From a virus (Duplodnaviria > Caudoviricetes), in IMG/VR virus record IMGVR_UViG_3300038424_000095, positions 1-60,648 of that record: a DNA stretch of 60,648 nucleotides, one strand, 5' to 3'. Positions 5,479 to 58,039 of the stretch are shown piece after piece. The notes beneath the pieces are model-generated. The model had not been told where the DNA came from. It saw nothing but the letters and a program-made list of their open reading frames with translations, and did not search any database. The position numbers and the translations under genes are program-made. Position 1 is the first letter of the stretch. Each line of letters opens with the position of its first letter.

Positions 5479-5547
5479 CCCTTGACGATGCAGGTTGAAC
5501 AGTTTTACGATAGCTCCATACTCAATTCAGAGAATGGAGGCTATTCA

Positions 5548-6699
5548 ATGGCCGGAAGTATAAGATGTGTCGGCTGTCACTCCGGTATCGATGAGCGGTC
5601 CAATGGGATATGCCCGAAGTGCAAAAAAGCTAAGGGGTATGCCATTAATTTCTACTACGAAGGCCGACACCATCGAATCAGGCTCGGGTTGAATTGGACC
5701 GCAACCCGGGTGAAGCTTCGTTCCCTGCGTGCGTCGATAGATGAGGGGCGCTTTGATCCCGTTGAGTGGGGCCTTGTCGATCAGAGCCCGAACAGCCTGG
5801 GGCTTCGGCTGTCCGAGTGGTTTGATGAGGTCAAGGATGACACCGCCCTCACCGAAGGGACAAAGACTATGTACGCCACTCAGGTACGGCGCATACTCGG
5901 GAGCCCGCAAGCTACCGTGAATCTTCTTCGCCTGGACATCGAAGACTTCAGGGCGATGTTCAAAGCAATGCCCCTGAGAAACAGCACGAAGCAAACCACG
6001 AAAAAGGCGCTCAGAACGTTTTTAACATGGGCAAGGGGTAAAAGGTACATCCTCTACATCCCAGCTCTCCCACGGATAAGCAGCGACGATGCCAAGGCCA
6101 AATACATCCTCACGATGGAGCAACAACAAGCCGCGCTTGAACGCTTGCCGGAAGGACGAAGAGGATTGTACCAGCTCATGATGAACATTGGCGCGAGAGT
6201 TAGTGAGGTTCTGACGCTCCAGGTGTCCGACGTGAACTTTGCCCGAAAGGTGGTCATCCTTCAGAGAACGTGGAGTGGTGACACGATCAGGGAAACCACG
6301 AAGACCGGGAAACGTAGAACGCTGCCCCTGACTGATACCGCTTTGGAGATCCTCGCAGAAGCAATAGGGGACAAGATCGGGAACGCCTATATCTGGTCGA
6401 AGACTGACGGCACCCCTTACATAAGACAGGAGATTTACACCGAATGGATGAACAAGTCGGGCCTCGATGTCCCTCTGAAGGATGCGACAAGAAGGACGTT
6501 CGCTACACGACTGAGAAACGAGGGTACGCCCCTTGAGATCATCCAGGCTTTACTCGGGCACAAGAGCGTTAGGATGACGGAGAGATACCTTGACGATGAC
6601 GTGGAATGGGTGAGAACGGCGTTGAAGAAAGCCGATATAGTGAATATGGTACGAGCTCGTAACGAGGCAAACGCTAAGGATTCAGAGGAAGATGTCTAA
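5548..6699 (+). CDS. int: Tyrosine integrase with N-terminal Zn ribbon and arm-binding domain
   Basis: GARVSE, TKTGK, DATRRTFAT (variant of HxLR), LLGHKS...TERY catalytic signature; GGAGG RBS before ATG 5548. Confidence 0.93.
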   Translation: MAGSIRCVGCHSGIDERSNGICPKCKKAKGYAINFYYEGRHHRIRLGLNWTATRVKLRSLRASIDEGRFDPVEWGLVDQSPNSLGLRLSEWFDEVKDDTALTEGTKTMYATQVRRILGSPQATVNLLRLDIEDFRAMFKAMPLRNSTKQTTKKALRTFLTWARGKRYILYIPALPRISSDDAKAKYILTMEQQQAALERLPEGRRGLYQLMMNIGARVSEVLTLQVSDVNFARKVVILQRTWSGDTIRETTKTGKRRTLPLTDTALEILAEAIGDKIGNAYIWSKTDGTPYIRQEIYTEWMNKSGLDVPLKDATRRTFATRLRNEGTPLEIIQALLGHKSVRMTERYLDDDVEWVRTALKKADIVNMVRARNEANAKDSEEDV

Positions 6700-19300: not shown

Positions 19301-22300
19301 TGGCTTCCATCTTCGTTCATCGCTTCGATGAGAGACTTGCCCCGGTCCATGACATGAAGAACCGATTCCGACGCGCGAGTAATTGCCACGCGTTCTATGG
19401 AGTACATGAGCTTTTCGCCAGTAATCGGACTAACCTTCGTGTTCCCGTATCCCCTGGAGAGCTTGTAGACTTTCTCCAAATCCTCTCGGGTCACTTCGGG
19501 GCGTCCAGTCATATCGGAGGTATCGTGATAGGTGACGGGTGCCCACCCTTCTGACGTGTCGACCTTCGTCTCCCCGACCTTCGCTCCCCACTGTTTGGCA
19601 TACTTGTTCATGAAGGCAGGGAGCATGGTATCGTAGAAGCCCTTCATGCCCTCGCCGCCGACTTTTAGGTCGAGACCGGAAAGGGATTTCAGCTTCATCC
19701 CGTCTTCGTCCATAACGGACTTGCCTTCACTGGCGGCTATCTTGTCGGCTATTTCCTTGCCGAAGAGGTCGGAGACTCTCTTGATGTCGACATTGTCCTC
19801 GTGGAGAACCACGTCGCCGTCTTTTATTGCTCTTACCCAATACTGATCATCCCCGTAGTCGTCGTACTGAATTCTGTCGATTTGCTTGGAGAGATCATAC
19901 CGTTCTGCCTGCTGCTCGCCTGTTGTGAAGGCTATCCGATCATACCCATTCTCCGAGGCCCAGCGTAGCATCCGCTTCATGACGAGTTCCGGCCAGGTCT
20001 TTGAGAAGGGGGCGGGGGGGACAGTCTGTGCGGCATAAAGATTATTTCCCGTCTGCTCTACATTCTCCCGTTTTGGCCCAGAGGCATAGAGATGGCCTTC
20101 TTCATCTAGGGCCATGAACATTTTGGTTCCTATCGGGCGTCCGCTTATCTCTGCAGCCTCTTCGCTATCAATGGTGTACTCTTCTATTCTGAGTGGCTTT
20201 GTGTAGCCCTTCTTCTTGCCCTCCTGGTGCCAGTCGCTCTGCACTTCTTCGATGAAGAGGACTTTCTTACCGTCAGCGTCTACCCGATCATTGAAACGGA
20301 CGTGGGCCAGGACGTTGGGTTCGTCCCAATGAGGTGAGGCGTACTTGCCTTCATAAATGTTACTTTTCTGAAGCCTTCCCTGTTCTGCCCATAGTCTCTG
20401 TTCCTCTGCGCCTACTTCTGATGCGGGTAGATTTCGAATCTCTTCTAGTCTTGCCCTTATTTCAGTGAGACGGCCCTCCTTGCTCTTTACGCCGGTGTCT
20501 TCTTTGCTTGGCAGCGTAAACAGCATCTCCCGGTAGTTCTCGCCCATGGGAAGGGTGTAGGCGGAAAACTTGGTGGGCGACTGCTTTGTTTCGTTCCTAT
20601 CCTCGTAAGCCGCCCTCAATTCTTTTGCCAAAGGCTCTAACGTACTGCTGAGTTCGTTTGGTGTCCTATCTCCTCTTGCGATGTCTAGGGCGGTATCGCG
20701 CGCTCCGCTATCTGTAAAATGCTCATTCTGGGCTTGCCTAATGAAAGCCTGTTCTGCTTTTTGGAGTCGTTCCTGTCCTTCTCCCCCCTTCACCACTTCC
20801 TTCATCTGCACCTGGTTCTCTTTGAGGAAGTCCGCGATCTCGCCCTTCGTGACCTTGCCCGTCCTGCCATCAAGCCAAGGAACCAGTCCCGACCACTTCA
20901 GTTCGTCCGCCTTGTACTCGCCCTTGTTCGCCCACGATTCAATGAGGGTTCGATAGCTCTCGGGCGTGCCCGTGCCGGGGAGCTTGGCGTCGAGGACTCG
21001 GGACATTTTGGAGTAGAAGGTGGGAGCGATGTCCTTCGCACCTGCGTTAAACACAGGCGGTCCTTTTGATCCCGTCCTGCCACCTGTCTTCTTGTATTCA
21101 ATGAGAGCCTTGTCTACCGCGCTCTTTACGGCTTTTGGATCGGTGGTCATGCTTTCAAGTTCACGACCGGCAGCGAACTGAGCTATCAAATCGCCCATGA
21201 CTCTTGTTCTCTGCGATTCCAACATACCAGTGCCTTCGTAGTCCGCCTGGAGTTTTTTCTTATAGATGTCGAGGTTTCTAAGATAGGGCTTTACTTCTTC
21301 CAAAAGTGGTTCATAAATGTCCGGCCTGCTATGTTGTAGAGTATGCATGATCTCATGCTGTGCCGTTGCCGCGACATCACGGGCGTTAGTGTTGAGATAG
21401 AGGACTGTCGGTTCTTGAGGAAGAGTGAATCCGCCTATCTTTATGGCCGATTCCGAGCCATCGAAAAAGTATGCATCAATGCCGTACGATTTCGCATCGG
21501 TAGCTATTTTTCGGTGTTCTGCGGTGAGTTCGACGGGGATTTTGACGTGATCCTGGACGAATCCCTCAAGATGCGTCCCCAAAATCTCCTGGACTTTTTT
21601 GATTGCAGAGCTGTATCGTTCGGATAGTAACGTATTCCGCTCTGTGACGTCAGGCAGATTATTCTCGGTTCTTCCTTCATTACCCTCCTCCTCTATACTG
21701 AATGTTGGCGGTTCCTTGCGTCTCGGCTTCAGCCTCTCCCCTATCTGTTCGGCGGTCTGCTTCTCCTCTCCGAGAGCAAGGCGGCCACCTCTGACTTCTG
21801 GTTCGCTAAAGGTAAGTTGGTGGATAGGCTGGTTGCCGGCGAGAACTTGCTTGACTTCTTCTTCTGATTTTGATACTCTTTCTTTGTTATGCCTAATCTC
21901 CTTTGTAGTACTTGTGGAACCGTAATTAACCGCGCCCCGTGCTTGATCAGAGGAAGCAAGACTGGATTCTTCTTCTGTTCCCGGTTGTGCAAAACTACTT
22001 TTTTCAACCACAAGATCAGGATGGATTGCCTCACTTGCGGCAAGGGGTTCTACGTTTCTCCCTCTACCCTCGATAATGGAAGAGGGAGGTTCTGTAGTAA
22101 AACCTGCTATGCGATTAATCAAGCTACTGGCCGTATTAATTCCAAGGGATACCGTTTTATCAGGGTTGACGGTAAGAGCGTTGCCGAGCACAGAATCGTC
22201 ATGGAACGTCATCTTGGTAGGCGACTTCACAGAAGTGAGGTGATCCACCACATTGACGGGAACAGACTCAATAACGAAATCTCTAACCTTCGGATCATGA

Positions 22301-24771
22301 AGTGCATTGATCACAGCGCCCATCATAATTCGTTGGCTTGGGACATCGAGACCGCCAAAGCCCTTTTGAAGGAAGGTGCTACTTTGCGAGAGGTCTCTGA
22401 TGTTCTGCACGTCTGCGGGACCAGTATTGGAGCTGCCTTGAGACGTAGAGGCGTTACCCTCCGTCTCTTGAGAGGATACAAGCGCACTAGCGGGTAGCTT
22501 CGCCTCTGAGGGGCCGCCAGTCGTTTTTTGGGGTGTGGTGGGGATGGTAGGCTTAGGGGCACCCGCCGGCTCCTCTTCCGCTGGCTTCTGGCTGGCCTCC
22601 TTTATGCCTGCTTCGATTGGAGCCGTGGGTTCCCCTAAAGGCTGCATGGCAGGAGTCAACGGGGCCATCCCGAGGGGTGCCATCGGAGCCTCCACCGGCA
22701 CCGTCAACGGCAGTTCCGCTATCCGGTCGATGATCTCCTTGTTGGCGACATCGGGCGGGAGCCCCTTGCTTCCCACGTCCGCGATGATAGCCTCTGGTGA
22801 GCTGTTCCTAATAGCCTCGTGGGCCTGGATGAACTGGTCGAGGGCGGTAACGGATGGAGCATGAGCCTGGGGACTCGCGGCGTACTGGTCGCGTACTGCC
22901 CGGATATGATCTAGGGTAGTCTCCCCTCTTTCAAGCCCCCTGGTGGCTTGGTCAAAGAATGAAGGGGGAAGAGGGGTGCCGCCCACCGCTGAAGGACCGG
23001 CAGCCGGAGAAGGAGGAGTCGCGGGAGGCGGGCCCTCTTCCGAAGTTGGTCTGGTTTCTGGCATTCCTGGTGTCTGTCTCGGATATGTCGAAACGCCTTC
23101 AACCGCCCCCTTAAGTTCGAAGGGAACAACCTTAGGCTGTCCTGCCGCTGCAACCTGAGTGTCGCTGTAAGGTGGAACGTGAATGGCACTCTTTATCTTT
23201 CTCCACCAGGGACGGTCGGCCACCGTAACGGCCTTTTCAACGGGCATCTCTATCCATGTACCGCCGATGAGGTCTTGGCGCATCTGTGGGCCTGAGCGTC
23301 CAAGTGCCCCGTAGAGTTCTTTTTCTTCGGCGGTAGCCTCTTGTCCGGCCCCGAGGATGTCGTGAATCTTGGCGGGGTCAAGAAATACTCTCCGAGGCAT
23401 GTTGTACTGCTCGAAGGTCTTTGTCGTTGCGGCTTCAAAGGCTTTCTGCGATCCTCCATGCACCTTGCCAGCCGCCCATATCTGACCCATGAAGTCAACG
23501 GCATCAAGGACCGAAGCCTGCCATCCCTCGGCATCATTGATGTCAGCAAGACCACGGCCTCCTCCAAAAGTGTAGGGCTTGCCGCTGATCTTAGATGCGG
23601 CGAAGTTCTCAGCTTCTGCGGCGCCCATGAAGGTCCCAAAACCAGCCGCACCCTTCAGGACATCCTTTGCCATCTGAATCTTCGAGGGAGCACCACCGAG
23701 AATCTCTTTCGCTATGCCGGATCTTGCCAAGTCAAATGCTGTGTTCACTGCACCGGCCGCTTCCTCCGCCGACATACCTGCCTGGACTATGCCGGCCCCT
23801 TCCCGGGCCGCTCCTGCCAAAGCTGAAATACCAGTTCCTGCGCCATATATAGCCGCTGTCGGTGCCATGAGAGGCAGCCAGAACGCCATCATGTACGGGT
23901 TGTTTATGATCTCTTTCCCCGTGGGCGTACCGCGGAGTCCGAGTTGCTTGGTGATCGCGTCGAAGTTGTCATAGATAGCATCAGAGGGGACCTGGACATG
24001 GTTAGCCTGGAGAATCTTCGAGACTTCTGCCGCCCTGTCAGCAACCGGCCAGGAAGGTTCTGCCCCTTTAGATACATAGAGATTGAAAGAGTTCACATCA
24101 TCGTGGTATTGCTTGGCCTTCTGATTAAAGGTCTCTACCTTTGTGTTGAAGGCATCTACCGATGTCTGAGAAGTCCTGTCTACCTTCTCCTGAGATGCTT
24201 TGAGGTCATCGTAAAGAGCCTGGACCTGCTTGCCCTGAATCTCAAGGGTATTACTTTTGGCGGAGAGGTCTTTCCCCCTTGCGAGAAACTCTCCTTCTCT
24301 GGGTGTCGCCTCAGGTGCTTCTGGCGCCCTCATGGTAAAAGGCACTCTCGCCATGTCCACATGCTCTGCGGGGTGCGCGAGTTCCTCCACTATTCGGTGA
24401 TCTGGAGGAGGAGCATTCGCCTCTTCTTCGAAGCGGTGTGCGATGTTGAGGGCAGCCTGAGCTTTCACAGGATCAGGATGGTGAACGACAGTCCCTATAC
24501 TTGGCTTTCCTAACCAGTCCGTTGTGATGAAAGGCTTCATAGTGCTGATTACATCAGGTTCAGGTTGACCGAGGCGGGCCGGGCGGACAGCAGCAAGTTC
24601 CTCTTCGGTAGCGGCAGGAGGAAGGGCTATTTTGACCGGAGCCTTGACGACAGGCGGTTTCTCTGCCGCCGCGAACTCCTCGTCGCTTATGACCCTGAAG
24701 CCCTTACTGACAGGTTGCTCTTGCTTCTGCGCCTGTTCAATCTCGTCATCGCTGATTACAACGTAGGGCAT
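16315..24771 (-). CDS. Giant 2818-aa polyvalent internal virion/ejection protein
   Basis: Last gene of the ejection module; HEIMH zincin motif; conserved phage domain AHVRFNDR...LFIEEVQSDWHQ...GYDRIAFT...GFYD; helical C-terminal region. Confidence 0.85.
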   Translation of the reverse strand: MPYVVISDDEIEQAQKQEQPVSKGFRVISDEEFAAAEKPPVVKAPVKIALPPAATEEELAAVRPARLGQPEPDVISTMKPFITTDWLGKPSIGTVVHHPDPVKAQAALNIAHRFEEEANAPPPDHRIVEELAHPAEHVDMARVPFTMRAPEAPEATPREGEFLARGKDLSAKSNTLEIQGKQVQALYDDLKASQEKVDRTSQTSVDAFNTKVETFNQKAKQYHDDVNSFNLYVSKGAEPSWPVADRAAEVSKILQANHVQVPSDAIYDNFDAITKQLGLRGTPTGKEIINNPYMMAFWLPLMAPTAAIYGAGTGISALAGAAREGAGIVQAGMSAEEAAGAVNTAFDLARSGIAKEILGGAPSKIQMAKDVLKGAAGFGTFMGAAEAENFAASKISGKPYTFGGGRGLADINDAEGWQASVLDAVDFMGQIWAAGKVHGGSQKAFEAATTKTFEQYNMPRRVFLDPAKIHDILGAGQEATAEEKELYGALGRSGPQMRQDLIGGTWIEMPVEKAVTVADRPWWRKIKSAIHVPPYSDTQVAAAGQPKVVPFELKGAVEGVSTYPRQTPGMPETRPTSEEGPPPATPPSPAAGPSAVGGTPLPPSFFDQATRGLERGETTLDHIRAVRDQYAASPQAHAPSVTALDQFIQAHEAIRNSSPEAIIADVGSKGLPPDVANKEIIDRIAELPLTVPVEAPMAPLGMAPLTPAMQPLGEPTAPIEAGIKEASQKPAEEEPAGAPKPTIPTTPQKTTGGPSEAKLPASALVSSQETEGNASTSQGSSNTGPADVQNIRDLSQSSTFLQKGFGGLDVPSQRIMMGAVINALHDPKVRDFVIESVPVNVVDHLTSVKSPTKMTFHDDSVLGNALTVNPDKTVSLGINTASSLINRIAGFTTEPPSSIIEGRGRNVEPLAASEAIHPDLVVEKSSFAQPGTEEESSLASSDQARGAVNYGSTSTTKEIRHNKERVSKSEEEVKQVLAGNQPIHQLTFSEPEVRGGRLALGEEKQTAEQIGERLKPRRKEPPTFSIEEEGNEGRTENNLPDVTERNTLLSERYSSAIKKVQEILGTHLEGFVQDHVKIPVELTAEHRKIATDAKSYGIDAYFFDGSESAIKIGGFTLPQEPTVLYLNTNARDVAATAQHEIMHTLQHSRPDIYEPLLEEVKPYLRNLDIYKKKLQADYEGTGMLESQRTRVMGDLIAQFAAGRELESMTTDPKAVKSAVDKALIEYKKTGGRTGSKGPPVFNAGAKDIAPTFYSKMSRVLDAKLPGTGTPESYRTLIESWANKGEYKADELKWSGLVPWLDGRTGKVTKGEIADFLKENQVQMKEVVKGGEGQERLQKAEQAFIRQAQNEHFTDSGARDTALDIARGDRTPNELSSTLEPLAKELRAAYEDRNETKQSPTKFSAYTLPMGENYREMLFTLPSKEDTGVKSKEGRLTEIRARLEEIRNLPASEVGAEEQRLWAEQGRLQKSNIYEGKYASPHWDEPNVLAHVRFNDRVDADGKKVLFIEEVQSDWHQEGKKKGYTKPLRIEEYTIDSEEAAEISGRPIGTKMFMALDEEGHLYASGPKRENVEQTGNNLYAAQTVPPAPFSKTWPELVMKRMLRWASENGYDRIAFTTGEQQAERYDLSKQIDRIQYDDYGDDQYWVRAIKDGDVVLHEDNVDIKRVSDLFGKEIADKIAASEGKSVMDEDGMKLKSLSGLDLKVGGEGMKGFYDTMLPAFMNKYAKQWGAKVGETKVDTSEGWAPVTYHDTSDMTGRPEVTREDLEKVYKLSRGYGNTKVSPITGEKLMYSIERVAITRASESVLHVMDRGKSLIEAMNEDGSQDLAEILGLEVAEGVPEKKLTAVHSLDITPSMKQDVLYKGQPRFSIQESLDAIKEAGNDAKAAYPHLEKIATHVYQEGARTWKDFLDRMKEVLGDLYKRFMFSMKKVFEAAKKAYAESPLANERGEVVLKDKDLPPLLQDFLDNIGKEREAEKGPERPKTFFSPVIEPVKTALNDLKEAYKKPPVSTESKRIIGRYTGALQRLEWQLTKLAKQINAEIPEKRQVAISNYIEAGGDNATLQAWADDSKAPYKQGYLDAMKLTPEEHAWAEKCSQDMQDTWQAANDSGLEIDYVENYVRHQWKDKPEKAGKKIISQINAGVFKTNPREALHRIWANYHEGEKLGYDPTDKRIGYQVVAHERSIREAMLARQALKELMASTEADGRPTVVVGGMGEPIQKTSYAVMRGDKDRAFRVFDSKDEAEKFIEGNKTTPMFGEKVPSIGDHIVERDNSAFAVKPNVKGKDWYDDQGREIYRPLDHPALRKWKWLGNDVNGHPVLMQGNMRIHRDAFGRLNALLGKSKIQTFEIPAKVPVVGGWQPGRTALHGGAFIKGTILIGPFHQFHLGEHAVFHKVNPFVAPEIDFDTRPLLREGVDHGLMLYSGKAMQEFAEGMASGGLWNRIPLVGDALKHYQEWLFQDYIPRLKALMFEHAVGRALKYYAKDMASGKFTRDQLLDNAAKQANAAFGELNYKYLGRNPTLQDVLRIGLLAPDFLEARLKFFAQAARPKGKEQFMALLRGAIIMATAAQVTNMLIGDDHKTHWNRPFSVMVGGREYTPRSVVGDMMHLVTDPRGFWYHRINPLWGRPLVEVATGRDFYGKRMGTMELVKDILSSWVPIPGQGLLKSNTGETTLGKIVNGLLGSVGISNYKYMSDFEKYAQNLEGPSFPSTDKSKLKSKLTQAVKENDPTANAQIRQAIRKHKLTPSDMESIHEKAKEPPAVAAAKRITLEQLATGIDKATPEEKKAIKPIFYNKFSNAVEKNELTKDEIEKYRKILRTM
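21889..22497 (+). CDS. HNH endonuclease with two Cys4 Zn modules and C-terminal HTH, nested antisense within the giant gene
   Basis: CSTCG...FCSRLC, CLTCGK...FCSKTC, KGYRFI...AEHRIVMERHLGRRL..SEVIHHIDGNRLNNEISNL, TLREVSDVLHVCGTSI. Confidence 0.85.
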   Translation: MPNLLCSTCGTVINRAPCLIRGSKTGFFFCSRLCKTTFFNHKIRMDCLTCGKGFYVSPSTLDNGRGRFCSKTCYAINQATGRINSKGYRFIRVDGKSVAEHRIVMERHLGRRLHRSEVIHHIDGNRLNNEISNLRIMKCIDHSAHHNSLAWDIETAKALLKEGATLREVSDVLHVCGTSIGAALRRRGVTLRLLRGYKRTSG

Positions 24772-49968: not shown

Positions 49969-50156
49969 ACTGTCGTTACTCCATATTCCTGAAACTGCTT
50001 GCGCTTAGCTTCCATAGCGAGCTCGATGTCGGCCTGGTCACGCCAGCTTTGCCAAGGGACCCTATGATGTTTGATACACGAAAGCCATTGAAAGCTGCGC
50101 CCGCCATACTGCCAAACCTGAACAACTTTCTTGCACTCAGGGCAATATGCCTTCAC
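49965..50156 (-). CDS. Small Zn-ribbon hypothetical protein
   Basis: CPEC...CIKH; ATGA-coupled to terL. Confidence 0.5.
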   Translation of the reverse strand: MKAYCPECKKVVQVWQYGGRSFQWLSCIKHHRVPWQSWRDQADIELAMEAKRKQFQEYGVTTV

Positions 50157-51802
50157 TCAATCCCTCCGCACGGGTCAAATATATCCCCTTCCCCCTCCAT
50201 CTGCCCGAAGACCTTGCGCAGGTAATTGTCTGTGCGCATCTGCTCGGTCAGGTGTATCCGCTCGGTTTGATTCCCCGGCTGGCCGGTGACGGCGTCGATG
50301 ATGCGGTCGGAGAGAGGGCGCCGATGCTCTGGGTCCTTGTTAATCTGCACGATCTTGTCGAGGAGGAGTCCTATCAGCGCGAAGCTGTCGACCTGGTCCT
50401 TCGTGCGTGCCTTCGGAAATCGGCGCAGCTCGTATTCGAAGTCTGCCAGCCATGGGGGCTCAAACGCTCCCCGCTTTGGCAGGAGGATAACTCCCTGCTT
50501 TGCGCGACCCTGGATGGATCTGGCCCGGGCAACCTTGTCCTTATCAGGCCTAAATTCCTCAAGATTGAGGTAAACACCGGCTTCTTGCATGGCCTTTTTC
50601 AGGAAGGGCCCTATCGTGCGTTCTATGTTCTCTACCTCGATGGCGAACATGAGGGGCTTCCAGGTCCTCTGTACGTCGATGAGCTCCTCGATGATGGACA
50701 AGGCGTCCCAATGGCCGCGTCTTACGTGAACGACCGGCAGGCGCTTCAGCATGTCTATTCCTGCCACCACAATAGCGGTATAGGCTGCCTTCTCTCGTTC
50801 GGATATAGCCAGGTCAGCAGCGGCGTAAAGCGTGAGCCTGTCGGGGATTACCTCATAGCGGGGAAACCAGTTGAGACTGAAAAAAGCATTTTCGTCTTCA
50901 GGGGTTGGATCAAGGAGGTATTGGCAGGAGTAGATGTAATCCCCGACTGTCGGGTCCTTTCTGATTTCTTCTTGTCGATTGAGGCTAAACTGCTCTGGCC
51001 ACAGTGCTACGGCACCATCGGATGACGGCGGTACGGCCTTACCGGTCATGAAATGATAGCTTGCCGGCCGCTTGTACGTCCGGTACATTCCGGACTTTTC
51101 CATGTCGCAGTGCAGGTCTCCGTCATCGTAGATCGTCCCTGCGATCTGAATATTTCCCCCAGTCTGAAGGATCGATGAACGCATGAGACCGTAGGCATCG
51201 CGGTTCTTGTCCATCATCTCCCTGGAGGTACAGGTCTCGGGCGTCACGATGTCATCACACTTAATCCTCGGAAAATGGAGTCCAGTCGGCTGGTTCTCAA
51301 GGCTGGTTGCCAAAAACGAAGGCTCCTGCCGACCGGTGTGATAGGGAAGAATGAATTCCTCGTCAGTCCACTTAGGTGATTCCTTTTGAGGGTTTGCCCA
51401 TATCTTGTCAGGAAACAACTCTCGGAGCCTTCTGTTGCTCTCAAAGTGCCATTTGACGGCACGCATCTTCTTAACACTTCGCTTAAGGGCGTCACATACG
51501 ATAGCGATAGGCTCTGAGGGGACCTTGAGGTATTGTCTGATGCCATCGGCAATAGTGAAAATTTGGGTCTTGCAGTGGCCGCGGGGGAGGAGAAACAACG
51601 ACAGGTTGGTGTCCTTCTGGACTTCGGCAGCAAACTCCTGGTGTACGGGCCCGGTGAGCCACCAGTACCCCAGGATGAATTTCGCAAAGAAATAGAGGTC
51701 ATTAAGCCCCCACTCCCTGATCAGATTCGCCTGGTCTTCCGAGGATAAGCTTTGTAAGGTCCTCAACAATGGCTCGTACTTCAGGTCCACAGGTAAGCTC
51801 AT
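50153..51802 (-). CDS. terL: Terminase large subunit
   Basis: Walker A-like LPRGHCKT, TGLH...KCDDIV Walker B, GTIY, nuclease AADLA...DQVDS; start uncertain. Confidence 0.93.
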   Translation of the reverse strand: MSLPVDLKYEPLLRTLQSLSSEDQANLIREWGLNDLYFFAKFILGYWWLTGPVHQEFAAEVQKDTNLSLFLLPRGHCKTQIFTIADGIRQYLKVPSEPIAIVCDALKRSVKKMRAVKWHFESNRRLRELFPDKIWANPQKESPKWTDEEFILPYHTGRQEPSFLATSLENQPTGLHFPRIKCDDIVTPETCTSREMMDKNRDAYGLMRSSILQTGGNIQIAGTIYDDGDLHCDMEKSGMYRTYKRPASYHFMTGKAVPPSSDGAVALWPEQFSLNRQEEIRKDPTVGDYIYSCQYLLDPTPEDENAFFSLNWFPRYEVIPDRLTLYAAADLAISEREKAAYTAIVVAGIDMLKRLPVVHVRRGHWDALSIIEELIDVQRTWKPLMFAIEVENIERTIGPFLKKAMQEAGVYLNLEEFRPDKDKVARARSIQGRAKQGVILLPKRGAFEPPWLADFEYELRRFPKARTKDQVDSFALIGLLLDKIVQINKDPEHRRPLSDRIIDAVTGQPGNQTERIHLTEQMRTDNYLRKVFGQMEGEGDIFDPCGGIE

Positions 51803-52226
51803 GCTGTATCGGTTCTCCCCCTTTTCCAGTGACCTGAACATTCTTCGCCGGTTCATCCCCTCTCAATTCCACCAGGCGCCACAGGGCGTCCAACTTATCG
51901 TAGAGTTCAAACTCGACGGTCGATGTTTTAAACATCTGCTCGCCGTCCTTGCTTTCGGTGATTCGTGTGTGTTCCTTCACCTTTTTGATAGCGGCCAGTT
52001 TACGCTTACCGCCTTTCTGGGCCTTGATTTCCTCAAAGGTATTAGCGCATATCTCCCCTCCTTCGGCAACCGTCAGGTAGTCATCGATGCGGGAGAACGC
52101 CACAGAGCAAAGCTCTTCGGCAATGCGTTTCAGGGTTCCCCCAGCTTTCTCGATGGTCTTGATTCGTTCAGCCACGACGATATCTGCTGCAATAGAAGGT
52201 GCTGAATCAGAAATAGAAATGCTCAC
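51702..52226 (-). CDS. terS: Terminase small subunit
   Basis: EELCSVAFSRIDDY...AIKKVK...FELYDKLDAL...VTGKGGEPIQ. Confidence 0.85.
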   Translation of the reverse strand: MSISISDSAPSIAADIVVAERIKTIEKAGGTLKRIAEELCSVAFSRIDDYLTVAEGGEICANTFEEIKAQKGGKRKLAAIKKVKEHTRITESKDGEQMFKTSTVEFELYDKLDALWRLVELRGDEPAKNVQVTGKGGEPIQHELTCGPEVRAIVEDLTKLILGRPGESDQGVGA

Positions 52227-52265
52227 CCCTAAAGTATGACGTATTACATTGTTGGTGTGCAGATG

Positions 52266-52580
52266 TTACTTTGATGTCAAAGGGGGATCATTTTTGATGT
52301 CACCTGATCCAAAATTATTGACTCTCCCCTGCCATTTGGAGTATCCTCCCCCCATACCCCCCTTAAGAACAACCTCATACACCCTTAGCCACTCTTCTAC
52401 CTCACCACGTAGCAGATAAGGCCGTCCATTCGGTGCATGGTGAAACAACTTCTCCATCGCGTATCGTTCCCGCCATCGGTAAACTTTCCTCCATGCAACG
52501 TCCTGATCCCCTGATAATCCGAGCAATGGCTTCAGATACTCAATAATCGCTTTTCTTCCCACGATCATATCCTCACTCAT
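52266..52580 (-). CDS. Winged-HTH DNA-binding protein (late regulator/excisionase-like)
   Basis: IVGRKAIIEYL...VYRWRE...PYLLRGEVEEWL; just upstream of the packaging genes. Confidence 0.55.
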   Translation of the reverse strand: MSEDMIVGRKAIIEYLKPLLGLSGDQDVAWRKVYRWRERYAMEKLFHHAPNGRPYLLRGEVEEWLRVYEVVLKGGMGGGYSKWQGRVNNFGSGDIKNDPPLTSK

Positions 52581-52807
52581 TCTTCCCCCATGTTCTCGTA
52601 TTCAGCACACCAACTTGCTTGATTCCACGCCGATCTATGCGCGAGTTTCTTTCTCAGCTCCCAGGTTTGCCCGATTCGATACCCATGCTCAAGATATTTG
52701 CACCTGGCAACCCCCTTTTTGATCTTGAATTGCAGACAGTTAGCGCAACTAACTTCAGGGATGTTCGACATTGGGTCCGATCTGTAGGAACCTTCAGGTC
52801 TTGCCAT
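52577..52807 (-). CDS. Cys-containing hypothetical protein
   Basis: CANC...C...CAEY; ATGA-coupled. Confidence 0.5.
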   Translation of the reverse strand: MARPEGSYRSDPMSNIPEVSCANCLQFKIKKGVARCKYLEHGYRIGQTWELRKKLAHRSAWNQASWCAEYENMGEE

Positions 52808-52971
52808 TATCTCACCCCAAACACTTCCATACTCCTCACCCACGCATACCCCACCGCCCCTATCACAATGGCTGCCTCCAGGATCCACAGGAGGCGGGTG
52901 CACCATTTATCCTTCGCTCTCATGTATAACCTATGCTTATGACATCATAAGTTCTTTTGTGCAAATACTGC

Positions 52972-53000
52972 TTGACACGTATTAAGATACGTGTTATAGT
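52972..53000 (+). promoter_or_regulatory. Strong sigma70 promoter with palindromic operator
   Basis: TTGACA-17bp-TATAGT; perfect inverted repeat ACACGTAT-taag-ATACGTGT at 52975-52994. Confidence 0.85.
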
Positions 53001-53045
53001 ATAGGTATGATGATAGAGGATCAAATAAACCAAACGGAGGGTGCT

Positions 53046-53336
53046 ATGAGAACCAGTGGAACATTTCAGGACGTGTACGAGGCGGCCAAAAACTACTCTA
53101 ACGGTGGTACTACTTATGGTGGGCGCCCAATGAATCCGGTTGTGCGTAGGCGTGCCTCTGACGGCGTATGGATGTTGGAAAGCGGTCTTGATAGCGCGGA
53201 GGGCAGCGATCTTGAATGCTCTTTGGACGCATTTGACAACTGGTTTTATGAGAGCTACAAAACGGACTATATTCCAGGCGATGAGGACATAGCGGATTTT
53301 GCAACGACAATAACCGAGGATATAGACAATGTCTAA
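53046..53336 (+). CDS. Small acidic moron protein
   Basis: GGAGG RBS; 96 aa; 19 D/E versus 7 K/R by my count. Confidence 0.75.
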   Translation: MRTSGTFQDVYEAAKNYSNGGTTYGGRPMNPVVRRRASDGVWMLESGLDSAEGSDLECSLDAFDNWFYESYKTDYIPGDEDIADFATTITEDIDNV

Positions 53337-53475
53337 ACTCAAAGTCCCCACTCTTACCTGTCTCCGCTGCGGCCACACTTGGGTTCCCCGCTCCGCCGAT
53401 GTCCGGCAGTGCCCTAACCCTAAATGCCACTCGGTGCTTTGGGATGTGCCACCCAAAAAATCTATCAGCAAGTAA
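53329..53475 (+). CDS. 48-aa Zn-ribbon protein, putative regulator (not in the ORF track)
   Basis: MSKLKVPTLTCLRCGHTWVPRSADVRQCPNPKCHSVLWDVP; GAGG RBS; overlaps the upstream stop. Confidence 0.75.
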   Translation: MSKLKVPTLTCLRCGHTWVPRSADVRQCPNPKCHSVLWDVPPKKSISK

Positions 53476-53482
53476 TCCTCAC

Positions 53483-53506
53483 GAGGCCCTTCGGGGCCTC
53501 TTTTTT
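53483..53506 (+). terminator. Intrinsic terminator
   Basis: GAGGCCC-TTCG-GGGCCTC followed by T6. Confidence 0.9.
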
Positions 53507-53521
53507 GTTCGGATGCGCCAT

Positions 53522-53824
53522 TTAGGGGCCATTAGCGGCCTCTTCCTCATCGTGACATTCCTTGCACAGCGTAACTAAGTGCTCCGGTGTCTGAAGCACA
53601 TTGCGGATAATGTAATCAATCACCCGTTCCCAATCGATACCCGAGCAATGGTGAACCTCCACACTGAACTCGTGTCCTTTGGCCTTGGTTTGCCGTTTAT
53701 GGCAGCCCTGGCATGTGTAATCGTCCCGACGTAATGCTGCACCCCTTTCGCGAGAACGGAGCCATATGAGGCGCACAGCACGCTTTACGTGGGCACGGGG
53801 GGTGACATCGGGATTGCGCTTCAC
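53522..53824 (-). CDS. HNH-family nuclease
   Basis: RDDYTCQGC...EVHH...LVTLCKECH; GTG start after AAGGAGG. Confidence 0.75.
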   Translation of the reverse strand: MKRNPDVTPRAHVKRAVRLIWLRSRERGAALRRDDYTCQGCHKRQTKAKGHEFSVEVHHCSGIDWERVIDYIIRNVLQTPEHLVTLCKECHDEEEAANGP

Positions 53825-54006
53825 TTGGCCTCCTTCTCGATTTCTACGCTTACCCTCACAGCTCTCAACTGGTGATTTCGTTTGACTGTCCGCCACGGCA
53901 ATTTAGAATCCCTCATAACCGCCTTAATGGCGTTCTGCCGTTTCTCTCGAATTGTGAAATCCCAAATAGCATTCCATTTATCGCTGAATATCGCCCAAGC
54001 TTTCAT
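53821..54006 (-). CDS. Hypothetical protein
   Basis: GGAGG RBS; GTGA overlap with the next gene. Confidence 0.5.
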   Translation of the reverse strand: MKAWAIFSDKWNAIWDFTIREKRQNAIKAVMRDSKLPWRTVKRNHQLRAVRVSVEIEKEAK

Positions 54007-54333
54007 CCCCCCACCTCCTCCACCGCCCTACTCTGCTCCCTCGCCTTTCTGCCGATCCAGGGGCCGACGAGAAGGGCGACAGGGAAAGAGAGGATAACCC
54101 ACGCGGCCAGGATGGCGAGGAGGAGGCTCATAGTTTTGGCTCCTTGTCTTGCTTTGAGTCTACCTTCGTCTCAAGTTCTTGAAGGCGACATCCGATCAAG
54201 TACAAAAGGTCATGGAGTTGGTCTCGGAGCTCCCCGGTCTTCAGGTCGTTTATCATTTCCCACATATCGCGGCTTCGTTCCCCAGAGAATATTTCCATCC
54301 TTCCCCTCCTTCCTGGTCATAAGGCGTTGAGGT

Positions 54334-54879
54334 TCATGCTCTTAGCGCCTTTTTGTCTCTCGTGCCGATCTGAAAGACTTCTGCGGCGGCTCCATTTGCT
54401 TCTAGCTCACCCGTAAATTTGACCGGCCCCAATTCGTGAGCCTTGGCAGAGTAAGCCTTGTAGAGCTTTTCGAACTCCAGCCGGTTCCACTTCCGTTGAT
54501 CGGCCGGCCAGTCGCAGACCTTCATCCATCCACCCATAGCCTCAACACACTTCCCAATCACGCCGTCTTGGAACTCTACAGAGTGATTTGCCCCGTAGTC
54601 GTGGATGGCACCCAAGAGAACGTCAAAGGCGGCGATAGCGCGTGTCTCTGGATTGCCCTGCACGGCCTCTCGTATCTCCGCAGGAGTCGGAAACGTGTGG
54701 ATGGTCTTGGTGTTGGCAAGATTGATCGTGGCATCGTTTATCTCCTCGATGGTGAGGTCGGATAGGGCCTTGAAGTAGAAATCGAGCTTTATCTCGCTGA
54801 TTGCCTTGTCAGGGTTCCCGAAGGTTTCGTTGAGGATTGCCATGATTTGAGAGAATTTATGTAAGTCCGTTCTCTTCAC
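54334..54879 (-). CDS. Replication-associated protein (DUF6475-like, helicase-loader position)
   Basis: FPTPAEIRE...SVEFQD..I..CVEAMGGW...EFEKLY; follows the initiator. Confidence 0.7.
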   Translation of the reverse strand: MKRTDLHKFSQIMAILNETFGNPDKAISEIKLDFYFKALSDLTIEEINDATINLANTKTIHTFPTPAEIREAVQGNPETRAIAAFDVLLGAIHDYGANHSVEFQDGVIGKCVEAMGGWMKVCDWPADQRKWNRLEFEKLYKAYSAKAHELGPVKFTGELEANGAAAEVFQIGTRDKKALRA

Positions 54880-55630
54880 GTTCTGCCTCCTCCTGTCTTC
54901 TCTTGCCCCAATCGAGGATACCAGCCGATGATTTGCTTATCAGTGGTTGACCGCTGTTCGGTTCTGTTGCCAGTTGATCCTCCCATCCTTTCCTGTTCAA
55001 CCACGTAGCCGGATATGGGATATACTGGCCACTATCCTTAAGCCAATCGGTCGAGGTCTTGGCACGCTGTACGGCTGAGAGGATTTCTCCTGTCAGGTGC
55101 TCGCTCGGATTGATCTTGGCCCATGCGTTTTCCGCATCTCCCTTGGCTACTTTGCGTGGGTACTCTGTCCAGAATTTTTGAAATGCTTCTAACAGAATCT
55201 CTTTCGAGGGTTTCGGTTTCTGTTTCGGTTTAACTTCTGTTTCTGTTTCGTCAGTGAGTACTCCGTGAGGAATCAGTGAGCCATCAAGAATATGTGATGG
55301 TGGCTCAGGATTTCTCTGCAAAGATGGACGGTTGATTGTTTGATGCTTAGGAAAGGTGCGAATATAGTAGTATTTCTCGCCATCGGCCTCAAAAGGAATG
55401 ATGCAGTGCATTGCCTCAAGTTCTTTTAACCACTTCAAAAAATCGGGCGGCTTAATTTCGTCGTAGGGGAAAATCTTGTTCTTAAGCCACAAGGGATGCC
55501 CTTTTACCACGGCGTAGTCATCAGAATGATTCCACATGCCTATAAACGTGAGCCGGGCATCTCTGGAAGTATTTACCGCCAACTTCTCATCATCCCAAAA
55601 CTCAGGCTTGACTATTCTGGATCGAGCCAT
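54857..55630 (-). CDS. Replication initiator protein
   Basis: MARSRIVKPEFWDDEKL N-domain; FWTEYPRKVAK...YIPYPATWLN C-domain. Confidence 0.85.
   Translation of the reverse strand: MARSRIVKPEFWDDEKLAVNTSRDARLTFIGMWNHSDDYAVVKGHPLWLKNKIFPYDEIKPPDFLKWLKELEAMHCIIPFEADGEKYYYIRTFPKHQTINRPSLQRNPEPPSHILDGSLIPHGVLTDETETEVKPKQKPKPSKEILLEAFQKFWTEYPRKVAKGDAENAWAKINPSEHLTGEILSAVQRAKTSTDWLKDSGQYIPYPATWLNRKGWEDQLATEPNSGQPLISKSSAGILDWGKRRQEEAEREENGLT
55209..55283. other. Putative replication origin inside the initiator gene
   Basis: Three 11-bp-phased TC(A/C)GTGAG repeats (55251, 55262, 55273) next to a strand-biased GAAAC repeat tract. Confidence 0.55.
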
Positions 55631-55859
55631 TCTTAGCTCCGCCCCCGTATGTTCCGCAACCTATATGGCACCAATGACACAGCGTTCTTCCGTTGTCGAC
55701 GTCGTATTTAAGGTCCGGTCTTAAGCAACGAGGAATTATATGATCCGATTCAAGGCGGTATTTACATCCACACAAGACACACTGATGCCCATCTCGTTCA
55801 AACACCAGTTTTCTCCAGGCGTCGTATGACATCGGTCGAATCTTCTTAGATCCCCTCAT
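55602..55859 (-). CDS. HNH endonuclease
   Basis: WRKLVFERDGHQCVLCG...SDHII...NGRTLCHWCH. Confidence 0.85.
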   Translation of the reverse strand: MRGSKKIRPMSYDAWRKLVFERDGHQCVLCGCKYRLESDHIIPRCLRPDLKYDVDNGRTLCHWCHIGCGTYGGGAKNGSIQNSQA

Positions 55860-56158
55860 CCCTTCTTCCTCTCCTTCCACCTCACTGAGCTCGCCCGCCT
55901 CTGCCTTTTCAGGACGACCATACTGCACGGCGAACAGTACTTTTGGTTCCCGCTGATAGGGTGGTAGGGCTTATGGCACTCGTCGCAGGACCTGGTCTGG
56001 TTCATAGGGCGCTTGCCTTTGGGGGGCTTGTGGTTGGCGGGATCGTCGGCCTCGGGCTTGCGCACGATGATAAGCCCACAGCAATGCAGCCACAACTCGT
56101 CCTTCGATGCGTCGATGCGCTCAGAAACAAGGGGAGTTGTGCAATGGGGGCAATTCAT
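55856..56158 (-). CDS. Zn-finger protein
   Basis: CPHC, CDEC...QKYCSPC. Confidence 0.65.
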   Translation of the reverse strand: MNCPHCTTPLVSERIDASKDELWLHCCGLIIVRKPEADDPANHKPPKGKRPMNQTRSCDECHKPYHPISGNQKYCSPCSMVVLKRQRRASSVRWKERKKG

Positions 56159-57270: not shown

Positions 57271-57342
57271 GGGCTTGCGTAACCTTGCGTAAAAACTAAC
57301 GATGGACTACGCAAGGGCAAAACGGATAAAAAAAGACATGAA

Positions 57343-57552
57343 TCAGGCACATTGCTCTTCAGCCGTGAAGACTTCGATGGAGGCACCCAGTTCGGTGGCC
57401 ATTCTTTCAAGCACGCCGATGGTAGGGTTTATCTTTTCCCCCGCCTCTATCTTGGAGATCATCGACCGATCTATGCCTACCCGTTCGGCCAGCTCTGCCT
57501 GCGTCATGCCTTTCGCCATTCTGAGGTCTTTGAGCTTCGTTCCTATCATCAT
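57343..57552 (-). CDS. Cro-like XRE HTH protein (leaderless)
   Basis: LKDLRMAKGMTQAELAERVGIDRSMISKIEAG; divergent from the repressor. Confidence 0.85.
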   Translation of the reverse strand: MMIGTKLKDLRMAKGMTQAELAERVGIDRSMISKIEAGEKINPTIGVLERMATELGASIEVFTAEEQCA

Positions 57553-57591
57553 GTGCATATTATTCACTTGGGGGCAGTGAATGTCAAGCAC
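57553..57591 (-). promoter_or_regulatory. Leftward early promoter with two operators
   Basis: TTGACA-17bp-AATAAT; operators GTGCTTGACATTCAC and GTGAATAATATGCAC. Confidence 0.8.
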
Positions 57592-57637
57592 AATTTCATC
57601 CTATTCAGAAAAAGCCGATTATCGTAGACTTTTGATC

Positions 57638-58039
57638 ATGGCAAAACCTGACGACACCGCCCCCCAAGAGGAGTTCATCCCCGAGGAGCTGCGAAGGACC
57701 ATCAAAGAATTGCGGTTAAGCAAGAAGCTCGGACAAAAAGCGATAGCTGCCGTTCTTCGAATGGAGCGGAGCAATTACACGAAGATCGAGAGCGGCAAGG
57801 TTAAAAACATAAAGACCGAACACCTCGCGAAGTTAGCAGAGTTCTACAAAGTCGATCTGCACGGCCTAGCGTACGGTCACGCACTGAACCCCACCGCGCT
57901 CCCACACGATGAGTCTCGACTACTTACCGCCTACCGCGAGATCAAAGCAAAGAACAAGCACAGAGCCCCCGGGATGATTGATTATCTTGAGTTCAATCTT
58001 GCTCGCATCAAACGAAGTGACGAAGAATTAACAACTTAG
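57638..58039 (+). CDS. CI-like XRE HTH repressor (no S24 peptidase domain; start uncertain)
   Basis: IKELRLSKKLGQKAIAAVLRMERSNYTKIESG; C-terminal DESRLLTAYR. Confidence 0.8.
   Translation: MAKPDDTAPQEEFIPEELRRTIKELRLSKKLGQKAIAAVLRMERSNYTKIESGKVKNIKTEHLAKLAEFYKVDLHGLAYGHALNPTALPHDESRLLTAYREIKAKNKHRAPGMIDYLEFNLARIKRSDEELTT

What the first reader, a model, noticed from the sequence alone, without database searches (positions are those of the whole stretch)
52972..53506. Self-contained acr-aca-like moron: strong promoter, palindromic operator, acidic protein, Zn-ribbon partner, terminator
Seen: a counter-oriented unit with TTGACA-17-TATAGT, a perfect 8-bp inverted repeat between -35 and -10, a 96-aa acidic protein, an overlapping 48-aa CxxC...CPxxxC protein missing from the ORF track, and a UUCG terminator. 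Established: anti-CRISPR and other anti-defence genes are often small and acidic, strongly transcribed on entry, and repressed by a downstream Aca protein binding promoter inverted repeats. Inference: an anti-defence (DNA-mimic-like) gene with a non-HTH, Zn-ribbon autorepressor.
Basis: partly seen in the sequence, partly recalled or inferred. Interest (0 to 1): 0.72.

Follow-up and report, generated by a model that had tools for sequence, protein, structure and literature searches.

The report
Phage moron behind a HicB operator
A temperate phage carries a small two-gene insert whose strong promoter holds the exact DNA site that HicB antitoxins of toxin-antitoxin systems bind, although the phage itself has no hicAB genes, so a resident cell's antitoxin may switch these two unknown phage genes on and off.

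Summary
These are the near-consensus promoter, a perfect 8-bp palindrome filling its spacer, a 96-aa acidic gene, an overlapping 48-aa Zn-ribbon gene and a UUCG terminator. The unit points against all its neighbours, between the HNH and terminase genes of a temperate phage from peat.

Both proteins belong to real, uncharacterised families. They are never neighbours elsewhere: 0 of 36 Zn-ribbon loci hold the acidic gene, and 0 of 5 acidic-gene loci hold the Zn-ribbon.

The palindrome is not private to this operon. The exact site TTGACACGTAT-N4-ATACGTGT occurs in 37 other loci, mostly Bacillota and their prophages. In 33 of them hicA and/or hicB follow directly. Among hicB loci chosen by protein alone, 47 of 75 carry the site with 3 or fewer mismatches. 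Controls gave 0 of 80 with 4 or fewer.

The window encodes no HicA or HicB. I therefore read the unit as a moron behind a HicB-type operator-promoter, probably controlled in trans by a resident HicB. The Zn-ribbon autorepressor idea is disfavoured. An anti-defence role for the cargo remains possible but untested; one relative of the acidic gene lies near ArdA.

The parts
52936..52951 (.). Second perfect palindrome CTTATGA-ca-TCATAAG, 21 nt upstream of the -35 and 29 nt from the start of the divergent gene at 52906. Its role is unknown.
   Evidence: unique in the window
52972..53000 (+). Sigma-70/SigA-type promoter TTGACA-17-TATAGT with an extended -10 TG. The transcript is expected to start near 53007.
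   Evidence: 11 of 12 matches
52975..52994 (.). Operator ACACGTAT-N4-ATACGTGT. It is identical in both half-sites, in spacing and in position to the consensus operator of hicAB promoters.
53007..53045 (+). Predicted 5' leader. It begins with an in-frame ATG ATG exactly 7 nt after the -10, which could be a leaderless start giving a 109-aa form. GGAGG lies at 53036-53040.
   Evidence: the 13-residue extension is absent from 13 of 14 aligned homologues and P0007 carries an unrelated 18-residue extension
53046..53336 (+). Gene A: 96-aa acidic protein of an uncharacterised family. The predicted alpha/beta fold has no solved relative.
53329..53475 (+). Gene B: 48-aa basic Zn-ribbon protein (C11, C14, C28, C33) with a basic tail. 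It is translationally coupled to A by an 8-nt overlap.
53483..53506 (+). Intrinsic terminator: 7-bp G+C-rich stem, UUCG loop and a run of six T.

Best explanation
The unit is an autonomous two-gene moron inserted against the direction of the late genes of a temperate phage, between the HNH and terminase genes.

Shown: its promoter is a copy of the promoter-operator cassette that drives hicA-hicB operons in Bacillota and their prophages. That cassette is TTGACA overlapping ACACGTAT-N4-ATACGTGT, abutting the -10. In the window it drives two unrelated small genes, acidic protein A and Zn-ribbon protein B. The phage encodes neither HicA nor HicB.

Inferred: in a cell that carries a hicAB module of this clade, chromosomal or on another prophage, HicB binds the operator and occludes RNA polymerase. 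The moron is then silent while HicB is plentiful, and is switched on when HicB is lost or outnumbered by HicA, that is, when that toxin-antitoxin system fires. In a cell without such a HicB the promoter would be strong and constitutive.

Guess: the cargo acts on the host, with A the more likely effector (anti-defence or exclusion). B is a nucleic-acid-binding accessory protein from a family that usually stands first behind strong phage promoters.
For: 1. Anatomy is confirmed.

2. Exact-site scans. The site TTGACACGTAT-N4-ATACGTGT was found in 7 IMG/VR loci and 30 genome loci, nearly all Bacillota. About 4 chance hits are expected in the 596 Gb genome set; that is my own arithmetic. Of these 37 loci, 33 have hicA and/or hicB directly behind the site: 30 with hicA and 31 with hicB. 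The rows were not de-duplicated; L044 equals L047 and L043 equals L062 over the stretch shown.

3. The genes are HicA and HicB by comparison with solved structures. HicB matches 9svk_B at E 2.9e-15 and 5yrz_A at 3.4e-10. HicA matches 4c26_A at 7.8e-18.

4. Unbiased test. I took 80 loci chosen by HicB protein similarity alone; at least 524 such loci exist in IMG/VR. Of 75 distinct upstream regions, 47 hold the site with 3 or fewer of 16 mismatches, and 11 hold it with none. In the listed sites it abuts a -10 hexamer (TATAAT in most) and mostly lies about 270-310 nt before hicB. Control regions gave 0 of 80 with 4 or fewer mismatches.

5. Half-site changes are symmetric, for example ACACGTCT..AGACGTGT and ACACGTAA..TTACGTGT. 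This is expected of a site bound by a symmetric protein.

6. The window has no HicA or HicB: best E 0.36 to 0.64 over six frames.

7. A review (PMC8138530, passages read) states that HicB represses its promoter. It states that excess HicA relieves repression in E. coli and lowers operator affinity 200-fold in B. pseudomallei.

8. The phage is temperate: integrase at 5482-6696 and an XRE-type repressor-like gene at 57581-58036.

9. Cargo. Family A has 91 clusters at E 0.001 or better among 1.84 billion representatives and a median pI of 4.07 over 72 members. Its model has pLDDT 85.6. An ArdA gene (PF07275, E 2e-36) lies about 750 nt downstream of a relative in L003.
Against: - No HicB binding was measured, and the host is unknown, so the presence of a matching HicB in the natural host is assumed.
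- The operator could be an inherited leftover of a displaced hicAB operon with no present function. An intact site may only mean recent capture.
- The exact-site scans require exact half-sites, so their uniformity is by construction. Only the protein-first test is unbiased, and there 28 of 75 loci have 4 or more mismatches.
- The DNA-binding role of the C-terminal tail of these HicB proteins is inferred from its ribbon-helix-helix-like pattern, which I recognised myself. It was not tested here.
- The function of A and B is not shown by anything here. There was no hit in Pfam, PHROGs, NCBIfam or PADLOC.
- A single ArdA neighbour among 5 loci is weak association.
Confidence: 0.5

Rival explanations
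1. Promoter capture without regulation. The hicAB promoter was taken over, or hicAB was displaced by A and B, simply because it is a strong promoter. The operator is a leftover. The unit would be a constitutive lysogenic-conversion or accessory moron whose products act on the host or on other phages.
For: The window has no HicB. In L067 the same promoter is followed by an IS607-like resolvase and a TnpB, which shows the cassette can be separated from hicAB. Morons with their own promoter and terminator in late regions of temperate phages are a known pattern (recalled). The phage is temperate.
Against: All 16 operator positions, the 4-nt spacing and the placement against the -35 and -10 are intact. 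Flanking DNA shows no similarity to hicAB loci, and the cargo is unrelated. This HicB clade is very common in prophages, with at least 524 IMG/VR loci, so a resident HicB is plausible.
Confidence: 0.25
2. This is an acr-aca-like operon in which A is an anti-defence protein and the Zn-ribbon protein B is a non-HTH autorepressor that binds the promoter palindrome.
For: - B is basic (family median pI 10.0).
- Its domain is fused N-terminally to a DNA methylase, an HNH nuclease, a primase-polymerase, a nucleotidyltransferase and DUF433.
- B-family genes stand behind 10/12-or-better promoters in 11 of 31 distinct loci, against 0.014 expected per locus.
- Palindromes with arms of 7 or more occur in the 80 nt upstream in 7 of 31 loci, against a 7-8% background.
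- A 2026 paper poses zinc-finger Aca proteins as an open question (PMC13551039, passages read).
Against: - The palindrome is the HicB operator, and none of the 37 other loci that carry it encodes a B relative.
- Palindromes before other B genes share no half-site with it or with each other.
- Against promoter-matched controls the enrichment is not significant (4 of 12 against 9 of 66, p = 0.11).
- In most loci B is the first gene, not the last.
- A and B never co-occur elsewhere.
Confidence: 0.08
3. B is itself the effector. It would be a small Zn-ribbon host-takeover or anti-defence protein made first on entry, like the 52-aa zinc-ribbon protein Enki that overcomes AbiH and a retron. A would be a second, independent cargo.
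For: - B-family genes are commonly the first gene behind strong promoters.
- In five loci (L013, L017, L023, L028, L032) the ATG lies 7-9 nt after the -10, which suggests leaderless transcripts.
- The invariant residues R13 and W18 and the near-invariant H16, S35 and W38 would fit one conserved target.
- Enki is described in bioRxiv 10.1101/2024.06.14.598830 (one passage read).
Against: There is no detectable similarity to any GenBank phage protein. tblastn of the window's B found nothing at E 0.01. Two relatives found only archaeal-virus and weak hits at E up to 1. So a link to Enki is not shown. The function is untested.
Confidence: 0.1
4. A and B form a toxin-antitoxin-like pair, with an acidic neutraliser and a basic toxin, that replaced hicAB behind its promoter.
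For: The layout resembles type II TA operons: two small overlapping genes of opposite charge behind a TA-type operator-promoter.
Against: - The two genes are never neighbours elsewhere: 0 of 36 B loci hold A, and 0 of 5 other A loci hold B.
- Neither has a recognisable DNA-binding antitoxin domain.
- A shows no relation to HicB (hhalign probability 0.1%).
- There is no PADLOC hit.
Confidence: 0.05

Closest known systems
hicAB toxin-antitoxin operons of Bacillota and their prophages (HicA toxin; HicB antitoxin with a C-terminal ribbon-helix-helix-like tail)
   Same: The promoter-operator is the same. TTGACA overlaps ACACGTAT-N4-ATACGTGT, which abuts the -10, followed by a Shine-Dalgarno sequence and two small overlapping or adjacent genes.
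   Different: The two genes are not hicA and hicB and show no relation to them. The charge order is reversed, acidic first. The repressor gene is absent from the phage.
acr-aca anti-CRISPR operons (Aca1-13 HTH, Aca14 RHH)
   Same: There is a strong promoter with an inverted repeat, a small acidic first gene and a small second gene, in a phage. The logic of repressing a strong early promoter is also shared (PMC13551039, passages read).
   Different: The second gene is a Zn-ribbon with no HTH or RHH. The inverted repeat belongs to another regulator family (HicB). No similarity to a known anti-CRISPR or other anti-defence family surfaced in the libraries I could search (Pfam, PHROGs); dedicated Acr databases were not available.
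Phage morons (independent promoter-gene-terminator units in late regions of temperate phages)
   Same: It has its own promoter and terminator, sits between late genes in the opposite orientation, and has slightly lower G+C: 0.46 at 52750-53199 against about 0.48-0.55 in the flanks. The phage is temperate.
   Different: The promoter carries the operator of a toxin-antitoxin regulator that the phage does not encode.
Enki, a 52-aa zinc-ribbon anti-defence protein of Vibrio phage 1.080.O
   Same: Both are very small phage Zn-ribbon proteins (one passage read).
   Different: No sequence link was found.
Acidic DNA-mimic anti-restriction proteins (ArdA, Ocr)
   Same: Small size and strong negative charge. 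An ArdA gene lies near one relative of A.
   Different: A has no sequence or fold similarity to them in the searches run. The conserved positions of family A are mostly hydrophobic plus R34 and S46, not acidic.

Membership tests
hicAB toxin-antitoxin operon | Promoter with the HicB operator | tested here: met
   0 of 16 mismatches to the clade consensus, with the same spacing and the same position against the -35 and -10
hicAB toxin-antitoxin operon | HicA toxin gene | tested here: not met
   HMM built from 4 HicA sequences, run against the window's six frames: best E 0.64. No Pfam hit for A or B.
hicAB toxin-antitoxin operon | HicB antitoxin gene | tested here: not met
   HMM against the window's six frames: best E 0.36. 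Profile-profile comparison of family A against HicB gave probability 0.1%.
acr-aca operon | Aca regulator with an HTH or RHH domain of a described Aca family | tested here: not met
   B has only sub-threshold Zn-ribbon-type hits in Pfam and NCBIfam and none in PHROGs
acr-aca operon | Promoter inverted repeat bound by the operon's own regulator | not testable with these tools
   Binding cannot be measured here. Indirect evidence points to HicB rather than B.
acr-aca operon | First gene is an inhibitor of a defence system | not testable with these tools
   No homology to any named family. Dedicated anti-defence databases were not available.
Phage moron | Own promoter and own terminator flanking the cargo, inside a block of genes transcribed otherwise | tested here: met
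Type II toxin-antitoxin pair (generic) | The two genes are kept together across genomes | tested here: not met
   0 of 36 B loci hold A, and 0 of 5 other A loci hold B next to it. L002 is cut inside the A gene, so its downstream gene is unseen.
Zn-ribbon (four-cysteine) small proteins | Two CxxC-type knuckles conserved across relatives | tested here: met
   C11, C14, C28 and C33 are invariant in 31 sequences. The model has pLDDT 80.5. No specific solved relative was found.

The most novel reading that the evidence does not exclude
The phage eavesdrops on a host or rival-prophage toxin-antitoxin defence. By placing a counter-measure operon behind the HicB operator, it keeps the operon silent while HicB is intact and fires it when HicB is lost or HicA gains the upper hand. 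The acidic protein A (or the A and B pair) would then neutralise HicA or its consequences. This would be a phage-borne, trans-regulated surrogate antitoxin of a new fold. My three searches bearing on this (titles and abstract starts only) surfaced no described case of a phage gene wired to a host antitoxin's operator.
Probability: 0.13. Interest if true: 0.85.

Novelty: new variant of a known kind. Interest (0 to 1): 0.55.

Why it matters
If a resident HicB controls this operon, it would be an example of a phage wiring accessory genes into the regulatory circuit of a toxin-antitoxin system it does not encode. That would give a direct handle on how phages sense or pre-empt abortive-infection modules.

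It also gives a practical search rule. Intact antitoxin operators that stand in front of genes other than toxin-antitoxin genes may flag counter-defence cargo, much as Aca genes flag anti-CRISPRs.

Separately, the work defines two uncharacterised protein families:
- an acidic family of about 90 aa with a fold that matches nothing solved;
- a widespread phage Zn-ribbon of about 50 aa that typically stands first behind strong promoters, often with leaderless spacing.

The hicAB operator with its symmetric co-variation is a clean data set for studying how repressor and operator specificity evolve together.

Tried and rejected
- **Fold searches for A.** Foldseek against PDB gave a best E of 0.9 and against BFVD 0.6. 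VIA-align wide gave a best Z of 3.5. No relative was found.
- **Fold and sequence searches for B.** These returned only generic Zn-ribbons.
- **ESM Atlas.** B matched only unnamed clusters and A gave no usable hit.
- **Fusions of A.** Longer A proteins carry no Pfam domain. The hits to FG-GAP repeat proteins look like chance hairpin similarity.
- **Complex prediction of a B homodimer with zinc.** No verdict.
- **GenBank phages.** There was no DNA match to 50000-56000 and no protein match to A or B. Two B relatives gave only archaeal-virus and weak hits.
- **More A loci.** The wide alignment A3 was too diverse for pattern scans. The subset A4 gave one more locus, L042. The genome scan with A1 found none.
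- **Relatives of a virus record** cannot be drawn.
- **Sequencing runs.** No RNA holder was listed. Contigs of four peat metagenome runs match the window without a single difference and show no form lacking the unit.
- **Rfam.** Nothing above noise in 52000-54500.
- **Terminase association of B.** A PHROG tally of 146 same-strand neighbours suggested it. Per-protein scoring showed only 3 of 31 loci with a large terminase nearby, so I dropped the idea.
- **Immunity repressor as the operator's binder.** No copy or half-site excess was found elsewhere in the window, including 57-58 kb.
- **Supplementary files** of the papers cited could not be opened. Their tables of Aca families and of predicted anti-defence proteins might list relatives of A or B.

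Full report
**Setting.** The window is a single IMG/VR virus record of 60,648 bases, estimated 88% complete. It recurs without any difference in contigs of four peat metagenome runs. It is a temperate tailed phage. It has a tyrosine integrase at 5482-6696, an XRE-type repressor-like gene at 57581-58036, an exonuclease and several HNH nucleases. It also has a large terminase at 50153-51856, a small-terminase-like gene at 51702-52226, an HNH gene at 53522-53896 and replication genes at 54334-55630, all on the minus strand.

**Observation.**
- The promoter TTGACA-17-TATAGT, with TG before the -10, scores 11 of 12. It is one of two such sites in the window.
- The palindrome ACACGTAT-taag-ATACGTGT fills the spacer from inside the -35 to the base before the -10. 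Only two inverted repeats of that quality exist in the whole window.
- Gene A (53046-53336) has GGAGG five bases before its ATG, and its MRT start is shared by all 14 aligned homologues.
- Gene B (53329-53475) overlaps A by 8 nt.
- The terminator is a 7-bp stem with a UUCG loop and six T, at -15.5 kcal/mol.
- The unit points against all its neighbours and has slightly lower G+C.

**Protein A.** It has no hit in Pfam, PHROGs, NCBIfam or PADLOC. A word-indexed search found 15 relatives among 16 candidates. A profile search of 1.84 billion representatives found 91 at E 0.001 or better and 66 at 1e-10 or better, almost all stand-alone proteins of 82-110 aa. Acidity is a family trait: median pI 4.07 and median net charge -14 over 72 members. 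The AlphaFold model is confident, with pLDDT 85.6 and the order strand-helix-three strands-two helices. It matches nothing solved or in the viral structure set.

I could read five other loci holding a relative of A:
- In L002 it is the first gene behind TTGACA-17-TATTGC.
- In L042 it heads a block with replication genes.
- In L004 it is the last gene before a similar terminator.
- In L005 it lies in a row of small genes.
- In L003 an ArdA anti-restriction gene (PF07275, E 2e-36) lies about 750 nt downstream.

None of these loci has B next to A.

**Protein B.** It is a four-cysteine Zn-ribbon with a basic tail. A pattern scan of IMG/VR gave 36 loci, 31 of them distinct. In the 31-sequence alignment C11, R13, C14, W18, C28 and C33 are invariant. 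The family median pI is 10.0. None of the 36 loci holds a relative of A.

The domain also occurs at the N-terminus of longer proteins. These carry a nucleotidyltransferase, DUF433, an HNH nuclease, a DNA methylase or a primase-polymerase domain. That pattern fits a nucleic-acid-binding module but proves nothing.

B-family genes stand strikingly often right behind strong promoters. In 11 of 31 loci a 10/12-or-better site lies within 120 nt, against 0.014 expected per locus. In five loci the ATG lies only 7-9 nt after the -10, which suggests leaderless transcripts.

Palindromes with arms of 7 or more occur in the 80 nt upstream in 7 of 31 loci, against a 7-8% background. They share no half-site with one another. 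Against other promoter-like sites in the same loci the excess is not significant: 4 of 12 against 9 of 66, p = 0.11.

The genes that follow B vary: a NUMOD3 nuclease, TnpB (twice), DUF968 and an integrase.

**The turn.** To see whether the operator travels with B, I scanned IMG/VR for the exact site TTGACACGTAT-N4-ATACGTGT. Seven loci came back. In every one the site is followed by TATAAT, a Shine-Dalgarno sequence and a hicA gene. Wherever the DNA continues, a hicB gene follows. The same scan over one genome per species gave 30 loci, nearly all Bacillota. These include Clostridia, Paenibacillus, Sporolactobacillus, Oscillospiraceae and Lachnospiraceae.

Of the 37 loci, 33 carry hicA and/or hicB directly behind the site. 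The four exceptions are:
- two sites without a -10, in a Burkholderiales and a Saprospiraceae MAG, which is about the number expected by chance;
- one locus that ends 46 nt after the site;
- one (L067) where an IS607-like resolvase and a TnpB follow instead.

The identity of the genes was checked against solved structures.

Exact-site scans make the half-sites uniform by construction, so I ran the reverse test. I took 80 IMG/VR loci chosen only by HicB protein similarity; at least 524 exist. Of 75 distinct upstream regions, 47 hold the site with 3 or fewer of 16 mismatches. Most of these sites lie about 270-310 nt before hicB and abut a -10 hexamer. Control regions never come closer than 5 mismatches, 0 of 80. 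Variant sites change symmetrically in both arms, as expected of an operator co-evolving with a symmetric repressor.

**Consequence.** The window's palindrome is the consensus operator of this hicAB clade, in the same register with the -35 and -10. Yet the window has no HicA or HicB, and A is unrelated to HicB. The 37 other loci with the site have no A or B relative.

According to a review whose passages I read (PMC8138530), HicB represses its promoter and excess HicA relieves this. The simplest mechanistic reading is therefore trans control. A resident HicB would shut this strong promoter, and loss of HicB or a surplus of HicA would open it.

Shown: the homology of the promoter-operator and the absence of the cognate genes. 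Inferred: binding by a resident HicB, and the presence of such a HicB in the host. Guessed: what A and B do.

**Rivals.** I weigh four.
- The operator is a functionless leftover of a captured or gutted hicAB operon (0.25).
- B is itself an early effector like the zinc-ribbon protein Enki (0.10, one passage read).
- A and B are a toxin-antitoxin-like pair (0.05), which their independent distribution argues against.

**Novelty.** Morons, hicAB operons and acr-aca operons are all known. A hicAB operator-promoter driving unrelated phage cargo in a genome without hicAB is a variant I did not find described in my searches (listings only). A 2026 paper names Aca families as HTH and, newly, RHH, and leaves zinc-finger regulators as an open question (PMC13551039, passages read). 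My evidence does not make B such a regulator.

**Verdict.** The most useful result is the identity of the operator.

Noticed in passing
L006-L041 (IMG/VR loci with the Zn-ribbon gene): The Zn-ribbon family is usually the first gene behind a near-consensus promoter (11 of 31 loci). In L013, L017, L023, L028 and L032 the ATG lies 7-9 nt after the -10, which suggests leaderless mRNAs.
   Followed up: partly
window 53007-53045: An in-frame ATG ATG lies exactly 7 nt after the -10 and would give a leaderless 109-aa form of protein A. The 12 bases from the -10 to this ATG (AGTATAGGTATG) are identical to those before the Zn-ribbon gene start in L017.
   Followed up: partly
window 52936-52951: A second perfect palindrome, CTTATGA-ca-TCATAAG, lies in the divergent gap between the moron promoter and the minus-strand gene that starts at 52906. 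It is unique in the window.
   Followed up: partly
window 57340-57590: The only other 11/12 promoter of the window (TTGACA-17-AATAAT, minus strand, 57587-57559) abuts the ATG of a small HTH-like reading frame that runs divergently from the repressor-like gene at 57581-58036. This is probably the immunity switch, again with almost no leader. I read that frame's product by eye only.
   Followed up: no
L080-L159 and L043-L079: hicAB operators vary symmetrically in both arms, for example ACACGTCT..AGACGTGT, ACACGTAA..TTACGTGT and ATGCGCAT..ATGCGTGT. This is a ready data set for repressor-operator co-evolution.
   Followed up: partly
L064, L071, L078: These loci have the operator-promoter and hicB but no detectable hicA. 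L064 keeps what looks like the last codons of hicA. These are solo HicB repressors of the kind that could act in trans.
   Followed up: no
L067:51-626: A hicAB-type operator-promoter is followed by an IS607-like serine recombinase fragment and a TnpB instead of hicAB.
   Followed up: no
L008:5004-6178, L011:5001-5677, L007:4986-5689, L031:4989-6448: The Zn-ribbon gene directly precedes, and often overlaps, a TnpB (twice), a NUMOD3 homing-endonuclease-like gene and a tyrosine integrase.
   Followed up: partly
L005:5780-6302: Three consecutive small genes, one of them the relative of protein A, are each preceded by the same 16-nt GCCAACCGGAGAGAAA (0.15 expected by chance). The next gene ends in a CPDC...CPDC Zn-ribbon.
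   Followed up: partly
L003:1033-1524: An ArdA anti-restriction gene (PF07275, E 2e-36) lies two genes downstream of a relative of protein A.
   Followed up: yes
L033:162-485 and 558-767; L015:7721-7882; L018:3688-3837: Some phages carry two copies of the Zn-ribbon gene. In L033 they are in tandem.
   Followed up: no
window 16315-24771 (minus strand): A single open reading frame of 2818 aa lies in the structural region. I did not examine it.
   Followed up: no
P0111-P0130: The closest long relatives of the Zn-ribbon are multi-ribbon proteins of Methanomassiliicoccales archaea. The only GenBank virus hits of the family are archaeal viruses.
   Followed up: no
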